From: Giardia intestinalis
Taxonomy: Eukaryota
Length of the DNA stretch: 64,000 bases
Reading direction: 5' to 3' (one strand)
NCBI GenBank assembly: GCA_000002435.2
Contig: CM018793.1
Shown here: piece by piece, positions 60,639-63,900 of the stretch
Layout: each line of letters starts with the position of its first letter
Numbering within the stretch: the stretch's first letter is position 1
Made by a program: the position numbers and the translations under genes
The notes under the pieces: generated by a model
The model's input: the letters and a program-made list of their open reading frames with translations, nothing else
What the model was told of the DNA's origin: nothing
The model's database searches: none

Positions 60639-62885
60639 TCATGCCTTCCCTCTACATATGAACCACCAGCAGAGGAAGCCCACGAGGCCCCCCACGACGA
60701 CGACCACAGCGACGGAGATCCCCGCGATGGCCCCCGTGGAGAGCCCGCTCCTGTTGGTGCCAGAGGACACACACATGCCATCCCTCGGGACATAGCCCTC
60801 CTCGCACTCCCCGCAGACGCCCTCTGCGCTGCACCGCATGCACCTCTCTATGTCACAGACAATGCACTGGGTGCCGTCCAGGCTGGGTCTCTGGTCTTTA
60901 TTGGTACATGCCTCACACTTGTTGTCTGCGCTGCAGTGAGAGCAGCCCTGGGCCGGACACACATAGCAGGTGCTTCCAGCCATGTTGGGCTTCTTATTGT
61001 CCTCAGCACACACCTCGCACATCCCGTCGATGGCGCAGCTCTTGCACCCGCCGACCGCACACAGGGTGCACCCGCTGCCATCCTTGTTGGGCTTCTTCGT
61101 CTTGTCGCACGCACTACAGACCGCCGCGGCCATCGCATTGGCGGCTGGCGCCTGCGGGGCCGCGCACGCCGTGCAGTCTAGCACGCCGACGTACGCCTTG
61201 TCGCCCGCGGTCGCTCCCACAGGGTTGCCACAGGCAAGCACGGACTGCTGAGCAGCAGAGTCCCCAGGAATCTTGAAGTAGCGCCCGACCGGTGTGGTGC
61301 AGAACCCACTTGGAGCCGCAGAGCACATGAGGTTGCCAGGAGCCTTCGACACATCATAGCAACCACCCATATAGAGGAAGTAGTTGTTGGTGCACCGCGT
61401 ACATACGCCATCGGCGCAGGTATTACCTGCAAGTGCATTGGTGCACTTCCCATTAATAGGGCCATAGCCGGCGCCAACACACTTTGAACAGTAAGAGAGC
61501 ATGCTGCCGTCGTTGCCGACCACGATGGCGTCGCAGGCCCCTGCTGTCCCCCCGCATGCAGTCTCATCTTCACAGGTCTTTGTACACGTATAGTCATCCC
61601 CTGCTCCTCCATTGGACTGCTTCTTATAGTTAGGCTTACATTCAGTGCACTTAAATCCACCGTTGCTAGAACATAGACTGCACCCTTCGCGGCCACCATC
61701 TGGTGTACTGTCGCATGCAGCACACTTCGTTTCACCCTCGGTTTTTAGGAAGTACCCAGGAAGGCACTCAGTACAAGTTGACACATCAGCTGACGTGCAG
61801 GTGGCACAGTTGGAGGCACAAGCCGAACAAGTCTTTGATGACTGTTCAAAGAAGTATCCATCCAAACAACTTGTGCATTCTGGTTTCTGACTTTGCTGCT
61901 TAGTACATGTCTTACACCCGGCAATCCCCTTATCGTTTGCGCCAGCGCCAGGGGACGCATCGCCGCAAAGGGCGCATGTGGTATCGTCCTTCATAAATAA
62001 GGCCCCGTCAGCGCCCTTGCACCCGTCAAGCGTTTTATCGACGCAGGTCGAGGTCCCATCAAGGGTCGTCCTGGGGGTCTTCTGACTACCGCAGGCTGTG
62101 CACTGAGGCTTCCCCGTGGCCTTGTCGAAGGAGCATTCTGTGCAATCAGTTATTGTACTACATGCCTTGCACTTCCCCGACTCTGGGTCAGGATAAACGG
62201 TGTTTGTGCATTCTCCTTCTGCCACACAGCTATTGCCGTCCTTCAGATAGAAGCCCGCTTTACAAGAGGTACACTGGGTCGCCGATGTCTCACAAGTGGC
62301 GCAGTTCCCCTGGCATTGTACACATGCGCCTTTAGCATCTTTATAATATCCATCTTGGCATTCTGTACACGTGGCAGCCCCCTTGTTACTGTCTGACTTG
62401 GTACACTGTGCGCAGTTCTCTACTCCCGTATATCCATCTGCTCCCTTGATATCAGAGCACAGGATGCACTCACTACCAGGCTTCGGTGCTGTAGCCGGGT
62501 TCTTGAACAGGCCGTTATCTGTCTTACAAGTAGTACACACTCCATCACTGGCCTTTGTACATATCTCACTGCCAGGATCTTGTCCTACCTTGTAGCACCC
62601 TCCCATGAAGAGGAAGTACCCGTCGCCGCACTTCCCGCAGGTGGTTGCCGTCTTGTCGAGGGTAGCCCCGTCTTCCTCGGTGCACCCGGCTGCCGCGGCC
62701 TGGGGGGAGCCGGGGGGCCAGCAGAAGCCGTCGACCGGGACGCCCCCGGCCCTGCACTGGGTGCAAATCTCGGTGGCCCCGACCGTCTCGCACTTATTCT
62801 GTGCGCAGGTCGCTGTATGGTTCCCGTCTGGCTGGCAGGCCGCCATGAGCGCGCTCGCCACGAACAGGGGTATCAGTTGGAACAT
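60639..62885 (-). CDS. vsp: Complete variant-specific surface protein (VSP), 748 aa: signal peptide, Cys-rich CXXC/GGCY ectodomain, TM helix, CRGKA tail
   Basis: ORF 60639..63074 (-) contains an internal Met followed by a classic signal peptide 'MFQLIPLFVASALMAACQ' (ATG at plus 62883-62885). The 63 codons upstream are a G/R/P-rich ORF extension with no signal peptide. The protein has about 12% Cys as CXXC, GGCY motifs ('GYFLFMGGCYKV', 'NNYFLYMGGCYDV') and ends 'GLSTGAIAGISVAVVVVVGGLVGFLCWWFICRGKA'. An AGTGAAT polyA signal lies 8 nt after the stop. This matches the established architecture of Giardia VSPs. Confidence 0.85.
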   Translation of the reverse strand: MFQLIPLFVASALMAACQPDGNHTATCAQNKCETVGATEICTQCRAGGVPVDGFCWPPGSPQAAAAGCTEEDGATLDKTATTCGKCGDGYFLFMGGCYKVGQDPGSEICTKASDGVCTTCKTDNGLFKNPATAPKPGSECILCSDIKGADGYTGVENCAQCTKSDSNKGAATCTECQDGYYKDAKGACVQCQGNCATCETSATQCTSCKAGFYLKDGNSCVAEGECTNTVYPDPESGKCKACSTITDCTECSFDKATGKPQCTACGSQKTPRTTLDGTSTCVDKTLDGCKGADGALFMKDDTTCALCGDASPGAGANDKGIAGCKTCTKQQSQKPECTSCLDGYFFEQSSKTCSACASNCATCTSADVSTCTECLPGYFLKTEGETKCAACDSTPDGGREGCSLCSSNGGFKCTECKPNYKKQSNGGAGDDYTCTKTCEDETACGGTAGACDAIVVGNDGSMLSYCSKCVGAGYGPINGKCTNALAGNTCADGVCTRCTNNYFLYMGGCYDVSKAPGNLMCSAAPSGFCTTPVGRYFKIPGDSAAQQSVLACGNPVGATAGDKAYVGVLDCTACAAPQAPAANAMAAAVCSACDKTKKPNKDGSGCTLCAVGGCKSCAIDGMCEVCAEDNKKPNMAGSTCYVCPAQGCSHCSADNKCEACTNKDQRPSLDGTQCIVCDIERCMRCSAEGVCGECEEGYVPRDGMCVSSGTNRSGLSTGAIAGISVAVVVVVGGLVGFLCWWFICRGKA

Positions 62886-63900
62886 TAGAGGGTCCCCTGC
62901 TGTGGCCTCTACCCCGTCTGTGGCTACCCAGCACGGCACACGGGGGGAGCGCTGTTCCACCCCTGCCTTGGAGGCCCCTGTCTCGACTCGGCCCACAGCA
63001 CCAGAGCGTGGTGGTCTTCCACTCTTGGGCGCCGCACAGCCCGTCTCCGTGCCCAAGCGGCTCACCCCAGGCACTCATACGACGGAGACCCCCGCGGCAG
63101 TGCTACCGGCAGGCGGGCTGTGCTGATGTCCGGCCCGGCGCAGAGCTCAGAGGGCTCAGAAGGTCATGGCTCCTTTGGTGTCTGCTATGTCATTCTCCTT
63201 GCTCGGTTGACATGCGCGCTGCTAAGAGGGCCCTCATTCACTCGAGCTCATGCCCCCCTGTGGTGACTCTGCTCGACCATCAGCGAGGGTCCCGGTCCTC
63301 CTCCCAATAGGCCGGCCTCAGGTCCCCCGTGATCTGCCAGACCGGGCAGAGCGATCGCGGCGCCCATCAGAGCCTGAGCCGACGGGGCCCGCAGTGCAGT
63401 GCGCCTGGACCCACGGAGATCGTTCACCCGCCCAGTGGGCCACAGCTTCCCCTGCCCTGCTGACAGTCCTCCAGCGAGGGGCATGTCGTTGTGGGGCAGT
63501 CTTCTCGTCCTGCCGTGCACACAGGGCCCAACCGGTGGCCGTCGGACAGTCCCGATGGCATGCCTGAAGCCCCGCCACGGCAAGAGGGCAGCACACGGGG
63601 CGGCCCCTACGCTGCTACAGATTGCAATGGCAGCAGAGACCCCCTGCCCGAGAGGCCCGTGCATTGGCTGTGGCGGCCATCCACTCCATGCGGGCCCGGT
63701 GCGGCGCTCCTGGAGAGCCCTTGCCTCCGGTGGTGCTGACAGGGCTCCCGAGGTACTAAGGCGTCAGACGAGGGACGGGGCCGAGCAGGACTCCCGGCCC
63801 GCATGCAGATGTCTCTGCTGTCTGCCCGGTCCTGTAGAGACCCGAGCCACCAGACATCTACATCTCGGATGGCGGTGCTTCGGGCTACCTAAGACGACCC
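62886..63900. other. GC-rich (about 65-70%) non-coding-looking region 5' of the complete VSP; no convincing ORF
   Basis: All ORFs here are R/P/A/G-rich on both strands, as expected for random GC-rich DNA. There is no AT-rich initiator-like element immediately upstream of the ATG (the sense strand reads ...gccacagcaggggaccctctaATG). Confidence 0.4.

What the first reader, a model, noticed from the sequence alone, without database searches (positions are those of the whole stretch)
62400..63900. Abrupt compositional switch: the unique N-terminal domain of the complete VSP and 1 kb upstream are about 65-70% GC, with no AT-rich initiator
From about 62580 upward the complete gene's codons become strongly GC3-rich (...gccgcggcctggggggagccggggggccagcagaagccgtcgaccgggacgcccccggccctgcac...), and this continues into the 5' flank. 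The repeated VSP body and the spacers are about 50% GC. Giardia promoters are normally short AT-rich elements directly at the start site, but here the 60 nt before the ATG are GC-rich. Two possibilities follow. The expressible 5' end may have been acquired from a different genomic compartment, since Giardia subtelomeric and rDNA regions are very GC-rich and VSP genes have been reported near such junctions. Or the gene is not conventionally transcribed.
Basis: partly seen in the sequence, partly recalled or inferred. Interest (0 to 1): 0.55.

Follow-up and report, generated by a model that had tools for sequence, protein, structure and literature searches.

The report
GC-rich head of a Giardia VSP gene
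The GC-rich block is real, but it is the normal front end of a Giardia surface-antigen (VSP) gene: a GC-rich non-coding island, the VSP start-site motif, and a conserved N-terminal segment written in G/C-ending codons, all of which recur at other VSP loci and are already described.

Summary
The window is Giardia intestinalis WB chromosome 5. Positions 1-51832 are an assembly gap of N.

**Observation.** The compositional switch is real. GC is 67% from about 62,600-62,620 to about 63,880-63,910, against 52% for the rest of the real sequence. GC3 is 77-97% in codons 1-90 and then about 45-55%.

- The N-terminal segment is unique only within this window. It is the conserved VSP N-terminal module, present in assemblages A, B and E.
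- Its high GC3 recurs in all 10 loci examined.
- A GC-rich 5' flank recurs in 7 of 10 loci, mostly with unrelated sequences.
- The C-terminal third of the same gene is also GC3-rich.
- The ATG sits in TAATGTT, the VSP-specific initiator PyAatgTT. This is the only such site in the window.

**The flank.** It is non-coding and 91% identical over 946 nt to the flank of a VSP at another locus in isolate DH. I found no rRNA and no telomere repeats.

**Prior knowledge.** High-GC islands at VSP loci, the initiator, and arrays of 5'-truncated pseudo-VSPs are all published.

**Cause of the GC richness.** My inference is recombination-linked homogenisation of the conserved gene ends. This is not shown.

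Interest is low.

The parts
60639..62885 (-). Complete VSP gene of 748 aa (MFQLIPLF...CRGKA). It is identical to KAE8304683.1 / XP_001705078.1 / UniProt A8BSC1 of Giardia intestinalis WB C6 and is the first gene of a head-to-tail VSP array.
62886..63846 (-). Non-coding GC-rich 5' flank (67% GC). It is 91% identical over 946 nt to the flank of a VSP at another locus in isolate DH (L001 5235-6172), with many 1-nt indels.
63847..63910 (.). Distal edge of the GC-rich block. Homology to L001 ends at 63846, and GC falls to about 44-49% from about 63880-63910 to the window end.
62881..62887 (-). TAATGTT, the VSP initiator / Kozak-like motif PyAatgTT spanning the start codon. It is the only YAATGTT in the window.
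   Evidence: PMC2996952; bioRxiv 10.1101/2022.03.07.483299
62592..62885 (-). Conserved VSP N-terminal module, codons 1-98: a hydrophobic leader plus a Cys-rich segment ending in FLFMGGCY. GC3 is about 0.87. The GC change point at 62619 lies near its end.
62565..62591 (-). Short variable linker, codons 99-107. Homology to all four downstream 5'-truncated copies starts at 62570 (codon 106).
60663..61422 (-). Second GC-rich block, covering the C-terminal third of the same gene (GC3 0.70-0.93).
60570..60638 (-). Spacer of 69 nt after the stop codon (42% GC), with AGTGAA 9-14 nt after the stop and GTGATAG-like repeats. Similar spacers lie at 57420-57494 and 55509-55562.
51833..60569 (-). Downstream array of 5'-truncated VSP copies with no ATG, no initiator and no N-terminal module: 60569-57495, 57419-55563, 55367-54231, and a further copy towards 51833. 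Body GC3 is about 0.44-0.50 and tail GC3 about 0.86.

Best explanation
The block is the ordinary head of a Giardia VSP locus. It is not a foreign insertion.

**Shown here**
1. [quoted passage not shown]
2. The GC-rich block has two parts.
   - About 960-1000 nt of non-coding upstream DNA.
   - The first 98 or so codons, which are the family-wide conserved N-terminal module written almost entirely in G/C-ending codons.
3. The switch at about 62,600 falls where this conserved module ends (the FLFMGGCY motif). This is about 50 nt before codon 106, where every downstream 5'-truncated copy begins.
4. The module is GC-rich in all 10 loci, and the GC3 change point falls 9-17 codons after the motif start in 6 of 10. 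The loci come from assemblages A1, A2, B and E.
5. A GC-rich flank recurs in 7 of 10 loci, mostly with unrelated sequences.
6. The ATG lies in the VSP initiator TAATGTT.

**Taken from the literature**
- Transcription and/or translation start at PyAatgTT rather than at an AT-rich promoter.
- VSP loci sit in gene-poor, high-GC islands.

**Inferred (about 35-40% likely as the main cause)**
The GC richness marks the segments kept similar between paralogues by recombination or gene conversion: the 5' flank, the N-terminal module and the C-terminal tail. Conversion biased towards G/C, possibly together with selection on codons or chromatin, would keep them GC-rich. The variable body, which is shared with the silent cassette pool, stays near the genome's roughly 50%.
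For: - Identity: the gene is 100% identical to a WB VSP on the 4,018,654-bp chromosome.
- Composition.
- The N-terminal module is present in all 26 VSPs read, from WB, DH, P15 and assemblage B.
- In a five-gene codon alignment, mean GC3 is 0.85-0.87 in columns 26-100 and 0.50 from column 101. GC3 tracks inter-gene nucleotide identity (Spearman 0.75, p=1e-6, 31 windows).
- GC is 0.55-0.74 in the 200 nt before FLFMGGCY in 9 of 9 loci, and likewise in L009.
- The GC3 change point lies 9-17 codons after the motif start in 6 of 10 loci.
- Flank GC is at least 0.6 in 7 of 10 loci. Flank sequences are unrelated except for win/L001, L005/L008 and the orthologous pair L006/L009.
- The flank is 91% identical to L001 over 946 nt, while the adjacent CDS is 84% identical and mosaic, with runs of 80-100 identical nt.
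- The flank is non-coding. It has 1-nt indels, no codon-phase GC signal and a longest ORF equal to shuffles. It also has no Pfam hit and no matching protein in the database.
- The untranslated truncated copies still have tail GC3 of 0.86, while their first 90 codons are 0.44-0.50. This argues against translational selection alone.
- The initiator is the only YAATGTT in the window.
- Literature:
  - High-GC islands where VSPs lie (PMC2723961).
  - The first array gene has a long non-coding upstream region plus the initiator, and downstream members lack it (PMC2996952).
  - The 2 kb upstream of VSPs average 53.9% GC against 45.2% for all genes, groups of VSPs share upstream sequence, and 135 of 136 VSPs carry the motif.
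Against: - The flank is not GC-rich at 3 of 10 loci (L006, L007, L009, with short intergenic regions of 0.38-0.48 GC). The island is therefore not obligatory.
- In L002, L005, L006 and L008 the GC3 change point is not at the module end.
- GC3 of the module (0.87) exceeds flank GC (0.67), so one regional process does not explain everything.
- Polarised singleton changes in the module lean towards G/C-to-A/T (15 against 6 overall; 5 against 0 at third positions). The numbers are small and not significant. This fits either a maintained state under A/T-ward mutation or slow decay.
- The GC3-identity correlation could also come from protein constraint combined with codon preference, since Giardia's optimal codons all end in G or C (PMC8393687).
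- No transcription data were available.
Confidence: 0.75

Rival explanations
1. Foreign origin. The flank and N-terminal segment were captured from the GC-rich rDNA or subtelomeric compartment and joined to a VSP body.
For: - The block has sharp edges on both sides.
- The locus adjoins an assembly gap.
- A preprint reports that one VSP-pair intergenic region is highly similar to gene-free subtelomeric DNA.
Against: - No rRNA or any other Rfam match at E<=1, and no telomere repeats.
- The N-terminal module and its high GC3 are shared by VSPs of assemblages A, B and E.
- GC-rich flanks of unrelated sequence occur at other VSP loci.
- The only homologue of this flank lies between a hypothetical gene next to a radial-spoke gene and an acyltransferase gene in DH.
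Confidence: 0.06
2. Codon selection. The N-terminal and C-terminal parts use G/C-ending optimal codons because VSPs are very highly expressed. The GC-rich flank is unrelated to this.
For: - All 26 optimal codons of Giardia end in G or C, and GC3 correlates with expression (PMC8393687).
- GC3 of the module (0.87) is higher than flank GC (0.67).
Against: - The middle of the same gene has GC3 of about 0.45-0.55.
- Truncated copies with no start codon keep tail GC3 of 0.86.
- The adjoining non-coding DNA is also 67% GC.
Confidence: 0.15
3. Functional island. The GC-rich upstream DNA is selected for its composition, as a chromatin or regulatory domain or a non-coding or antisense transcript unit. 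It would take part in one-at-a-time VSP expression.
For: - The flank is more conserved than the adjacent coding sequence (91% against 84%), and the proximal 24 nt are identical.
- The authors of PMC2723961 suggested the islands may matter for VSP regulation.
- A 100-nt VSP upstream region gave expression in under 5% of cells already expressing another VSP.
Against: - Three of 10 loci lack a GC-rich flank.
- There is no common motif among flanks.
- There is no Rfam match, no G-quadruplex motif and no notable repeats.
- The higher identity may simply reflect a recent duplication.
Confidence: 0.2
4. The flank is a decayed gene or a transposable-element relic.
For: - There are ORFs of 92-174 aa on both strands.
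- The preprint reports retrotransposon relics near some VSP pairs.
Against: - The longest stop-free stretch (171 aa) equals that of shuffled sequence (mean 170, sd 41), and GC is flat across codon phases.
- There are no Pfam hits and no protein match for the 174-aa ORF.
- Frame-breaking 1-nt indels separate it from L001.
Confidence: 0.07

Closest known systems
High-GC% islands at VSP loci of Giardia WB (Franzen et al. 2009, PMC2723961; re-measured in bioRxiv 10.1101/2022.03.07.483299)
   Same: A VSP gene sits in a region of higher GC than the surrounding genome, with a long, gene-poor upstream region.
   Different: The published description uses 5-kb windows or averages over 2 kb (53.9%). Here the island is resolved to about 1.3 kb at 67% GC, with edges at about 62,619 and about 63,910. 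Its proximal edge lies inside the coding sequence, at the end of the conserved N-terminal module.
VSP initiator / Kozak-like motif PyAatgTT (Adam et al. 2010, PMC2996952)
   Same: TAATGTT spans the ATG. This is one of the two published forms, TAatgTT and CAatgTT.
   Different: Nothing differs. The motif's role (transcription or translation) is unsettled in the literature and was not tested here.
VSP linear arrays with pseudo-VSP cassettes (Adam et al. 2010; Xu et al. 2020, PMC7000408; G. muris, PMC7641422)
   Same: The first gene has a long non-coding upstream region and the initiator. Downstream members lack an ATG, the initiator and the signal peptide. They are proposed as donors for recombination or segmental gene conversion.
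   Different: In this array all four truncated copies begin at the same point (head codon 106), about 8 codons after the GC-rich module. I did not find this stated in the papers read.
Expression-site plus silent-cassette antigenic variation systems (Trypanosoma brucei VSG, Pneumocystis MSG, Neisseria pilE/pilS)
   Same: One expressible copy with unique upstream sequence lies next to promoterless, 5'-truncated copies.
   Different: This is an analogy only. Giardia VSP switching is reported as epigenetic or post-transcriptional, and no conversion event during switching has been shown. Membership is not claimed.

Membership tests
Giardia variant-specific surface protein (VSP) gene | C-terminal membrane-spanning segment followed by CRGKA | tested here: met
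   The protein ends ...GLSTGAIAGISVAVVVVVGGLVGFLCWWFICRGKA*.
Giardia variant-specific surface protein (VSP) gene | Cysteine-rich ectodomain with many CXXC motifs; Pfam PF03302 | tested here: met
   92 Cys (12.3%) and 34 CXXC. PF03302 is recorded for the identical protein P0001.
Giardia variant-specific surface protein (VSP) gene | N-terminal signal peptide | not testable with these tools
   No signal-peptide predictor was available. The hydrophobic leader MFQLIPLFVASALMAAC is visible, and the WB annotation keeps the gene as a VSP rather than a pseudo-VSP.
Giardia variant-specific surface protein (VSP) gene | PyAatgTT at the start codon | tested here: met
   TAATGTT at 62881-62887 on the minus strand, the only match in the window.
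Giardia variant-specific surface protein (VSP) gene | Polyadenylation signal AGTRAA shortly after the stop codon | tested here: met
   TGACTCAGGTAGTGAATGC: AGTGAA lies 9-14 nt after the stop.
First gene of a VSP linear array (Adam et al. 2010) | Extended non-coding upstream region and initiator on the first gene; downstream head-to-tail members without initiator or ATG | tested here: met
   At least 1 kb upstream shows no coding signal. The four downstream copies start at head codon 106 with no YAATGTT.
High-GC island at a VSP locus (Franzen et al. 2009) | GC clearly above the neighbouring sequence around a VSP gene | tested here: met
   67% against 52% in the window. The same holds at 7 of 10 VSP loci from four isolates.
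rDNA or subtelomeric segment | Fragments of 18S, 5.8S or 28S rRNA genes | tested here: not met
   No Rfam match at E<=1 in 51833-64000.
rDNA or subtelomeric segment | Telomere repeats (TAGGG)n | tested here: not met
   No TAGGGTAGGG on either strand.
rDNA or subtelomeric segment | Similarity to the rDNA intergenic spacer or to gene-free subtelomeric DNA | not testable with these tools
   No Giardia genome or rDNA sequence can be searched here. WB contigs are not in the look-up, and two metagenome scans found nothing.
Canonical Giardia AT-rich core promoter | A/T-rich tract within about 50-60 nt upstream of the ATG | tested here: not met
   The 60 nt upstream are 68% GC, with no A/T run of 5 or more in 200 nt. 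Only the motif at the ATG itself is A/T-rich.

The most novel reading that the evidence does not exclude
The GC plateau would be the compositional footprint of a recombination-homogenised expression head, comprising the flank, the initiator and the N-terminal module. All silent cassettes are cut just downstream of it. New VSPs would then arise by segmental conversion of the roughly 50% GC body into the single expressible head. G/C-biased conversion would write the GC signature at the conserved 5' and 3' ends. The cassette idea itself is already published. Only the GC-bias link and the fixed boundary would be new.
Probability: 0.25. Interest if true: 0.45.

Novelty: already known. Interest (0 to 1): 0.2.

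Why it matters
The finding matters little beyond confirmation. The gene is annotated, and the three features behind the observation are all in the literature: GC islands at VSP loci, the VSP start motif, and pseudo-VSP arrays.

The fine-scale picture may be of modest use to people studying how VSP repertoires diversify and how the loci are silenced. That picture is:
- the island's edge falls at the end of the conserved N-terminal module;
- all cassettes start 8 codons later;
- GC3 tracks similarity between paralogues.

There is also a practical annotation point. GC-rich flanks lack stop codons, which led annotators of the DH and P15 genomes to extend VSP reading frames upstream of the true ATG.

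Tried and rejected
- **Rfam at E<=1 on all real sequence:** no match, so no rRNA or known RNA.
- **Bacterial-type promoter and terminator scan:** nothing, and not relevant to Giardia.
- **Pfam on six flank ORFs:** nothing.
- **Protein database search with the 174-aa flank ORF:** nothing.
- **Protein search with the in-frame upstream extension plus leader:** it returned no candidates, even though an identical protein exists. I treat this as a tool miss, not evidence.
- **Exact look-up of the WB proteins P0001 and P0003:** not on record, so no more WB flanking DNA and no view beyond position 64000.
- **Two metagenome scans with conserved 25-mers from the flank and start region:** no hits.
- **Search for a third copy of this flank, to polarise substitutions:** the last look-up (L009) turned out to have a different, GC-poor flank.
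- **Polarised singleton counts in the N-terminal module:** 15 G/C-to-A/T against 6 A/T-to-G/C, too few to decide.
- **G-quadruplex motifs, internal repeats and CpG depletion in the flank:** nothing notable. There were no G4 motifs, only short chance-level repeats, and CpG observed/expected was 0.66.
- **Literature search for GC-biased gene conversion in Giardia VSPs:** no relevant paper in the library.
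Full report
**What the window is.** Positions 1-51832 are N. Only 51833-64000 is sequence. The minus strand carries a head-to-tail array of Giardia VSP genes.
- The one complete gene runs from 62885 down to 60639 and encodes 748 aa.
- It is 100% identical to a VSP of Giardia intestinalis WB C6 on the 4,018,654-bp chromosome (KAE8304683.1 / XP_001705078.1 / A8BSC1).
- The WB reference fills unresolved repeats with N, sized from the optical map (PMC7000408). 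That explains the N run.

**The observation.**
- GC is 67.2% for 62580-63880, against 52.3% for 51833-62579.
- The best change point is 62619. The distal edge is about 63910.
- The GC-richest 1300-nt window of the real sequence starts at 62613.
- Within the gene, GC3 is 0.77-0.97 over codons 1-90 and drops to 0.43-0.57.
- The 60 nt before the ATG are 68% GC, and no A/T run of 5 or more occurs in 200 nt.

The switch is therefore real and sharp. Two points need adding. The last 200 or so codons of the same gene are also GC3-rich (0.70-0.93; block 60663-61422). And the ATG sits in TCTAATGTT.

**The start site.** TAATGTT (62881-62887, minus strand) is the only YAATGTT in the window.
- PyAatgTT is the published VSP initiator candidate (PMC2996952).
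- A later re-analysis found it in 135 of 136 WB VSPs and almost nowhere else. That work leaves open whether it acts in transcription or as a Kozak-like signal (bioRxiv 10.1101/2022.03.07.483299).
- The same motif lies at the ATG of the related genes in L001, L002, L003, L006 and L007.

**The N-terminal domain is not unique.** All 26 VSPs read from WB, DH (A2), P15 (E) and assemblage B share the pattern C.PDG.H..TC...CE.VG..EICT.C..GGVP.DGFC.P...P....GC...FLFMGGCY. It is missing only from the truncated copies in this window.

**The same composition recurs at other loci.** I fetched nine VSP loci: DH (L001, L004), P15 (L002, L003, L006, L007), GS-B (L005, L008) and an ENA assembly (L009).
- In every one, the 200 nt before FLFMGGCY are GC-rich (0.55-0.79). 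GC then falls to about 0.50.
- In a five-gene codon alignment, mean GC3 is 0.85-0.87 in columns 26-100 and 0.50 from column 101.
- The GC3 change point lies 9-17 codons after the motif start in 6 of 10 loci. In L002, L005, L006 and L008 it lies elsewhere.
- The 5' flank is at least 60% GC in 7 of 10 loci, for 600 nt up to more than 3 kb.
- The flank is not GC-rich in L006, L007 and L009, which have short intergenic regions.

**What the flank is.**
- Window 63846-62906 aligns to L001 5235-6172 at 91% over 946 nt. The adjacent coding sequence is 84% identical and mosaic, with runs of 80-100 identical bases between diverged patches.
- L001 lies between ordinary genes in DH, downstream of a hypothetical gene and a radial-spoke gene and upstream of an acyltransferase gene.
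- The alignment has many 1-nt indels and a 183-nt insertion in L001 just before the identical proximal 24 nt.
- GC is flat across codon phases, and the longest open stretch (171 aa) equals shuffled controls.
- There is no Pfam match, no matching protein and no Rfam match. There are also no G4 motifs, no notable repeats and no telomere repeats.
- The other GC-rich flanks are unrelated in sequence, apart from L005/L008 (78%) and the orthologous pair L006/L009.

The flank is thus non-coding DNA that belongs to a small flank family. GC richness of VSP flanks is a property of the loci, not of one ancestral sequence.

**Relation to the array.**
- All four truncated copies begin their homology with the head gene at 62570, which is codon 106. 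That is 8 codons after FLFMGGCY.
- They therefore lack exactly the GC-rich module.
- Their first 90 codons have GC3 of 0.44-0.50, but their last 70 codons have 0.86, like the head gene.

**What is already known.**
- Franzen et al. 2009 reported that VSPs lie in high-GC islands and suggested a regulatory role (PMC2723961).
- The 2022 preprint gives 53.9% GC for the 2 kb upstream of VSPs against 45.2% for all genes. It notes long gene-poor intergenic regions and groups of VSPs that share upstream sequence.
- Adam et al. 2010 described first-in-array genes with long non-coding upstream regions and the initiator. They described downstream members without them and proposed these as recombination cassettes.
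- The G. muris genome paper makes the same argument for pseudo-VSP arrays.

**Why these segments are GC-rich (inference).**
- GC3 tracks inter-gene nucleotide identity along the alignment (Spearman 0.75, p=1e-6).
- Coding and non-coding DNA are both affected.
- Untranslated copies keep GC-rich tails.

These points favour a recombination-linked process, such as G/C-biased gene conversion acting on the homogenised gene ends. They argue against gene-wide translational selection, even though Giardia's optimal codons all end in G or C (PMC8393687).

The case is not closed.
- Module GC3 (0.87) exceeds flank GC (0.67).
- Three loci lack GC-rich flanks.
- Polarised singleton changes (15 G/C-to-A/T against 6 the other way) are too few to decide.
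- I found no paper proposing this mechanism for Giardia.

**Verdict.** The acquisition idea is not supported. The idea of unconventional transcription is true only in the published sense that VSPs use PyAatgTT and lack an AT-rich promoter. This is a well-annotated gene showing known features of VSP loci, so interest is low.

Noticed in passing
window 1-51832: The whole stretch is N. It is an assembly gap of the WB chromosome-5 scaffold, sized from the optical map, and it directly abuts the pseudo-VSP array. The array may therefore continue into the gap.
   Followed up: partly
window 61267-61550 and 54265-54548: A 284-nt perfectly identical tract, within 93% identity over 408 nt, links the head gene to the fourth array member. 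The surrounding similarity is about 60-80%. This looks like a recent segmental gene conversion or transfer.
   Followed up: partly
window 62570, 60572, 57422, 55508, 53199: All four 5'-truncated copies start their homology with the head gene at the same point (head codon 106, ...SEICTKA...). The three CRGKA stops at 60639, 57495 and 55563 are in the same reading phase, with spacings of 3144 and 1932 nt, both multiples of 3.
   Followed up: partly
window 60570-60638, 57420-57494, 55509-55562: The inter-copy spacers of 54-75 nt (about 42% GC) share AGTGAATGCT(A/G)TACAATGTGTGATAG followed by a variable number of GGTGATA / GTGATAG units.
   Followed up: no
L004 about 4960-5000; L009 about 4950-4990; protein P0031: VSP genes with the same N-terminal module have ...CACCACAGCCTTTCTACTGATACCC... 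where the window has ...CTCTAATGTTCCAACTGATACCC.... They have no ATG and no initiator. They may be pseudogenised heads or an alternative 5' end. L004 is itself the head of an array in DH.
   Followed up: no
L001 6171-6353: L001 has a 183-nt insertion relative to the window flank, placed just upstream of the 24 nt that are identical in both loci and precede the ATG.
   Followed up: no
proteins P0002, P0010, P0021, P0024, P0031 (DH and P15 annotations): The annotated VSP reading frames start 70-125 codons upstream of the PyAatgTT ATG. The GC-rich flank has few stop codons, so these are probably mis-called starts.
   Followed up: partly
window gene codons 91-98 and 503-510: The motif (F/Y)L(F/Y)MGGCY followed by ..PG...C occurs twice in the protein (FLFMGGCY and FLYMGGCY). 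This suggests an internal duplication of the module end. GC3 also rises near the second copy.
   Followed up: no
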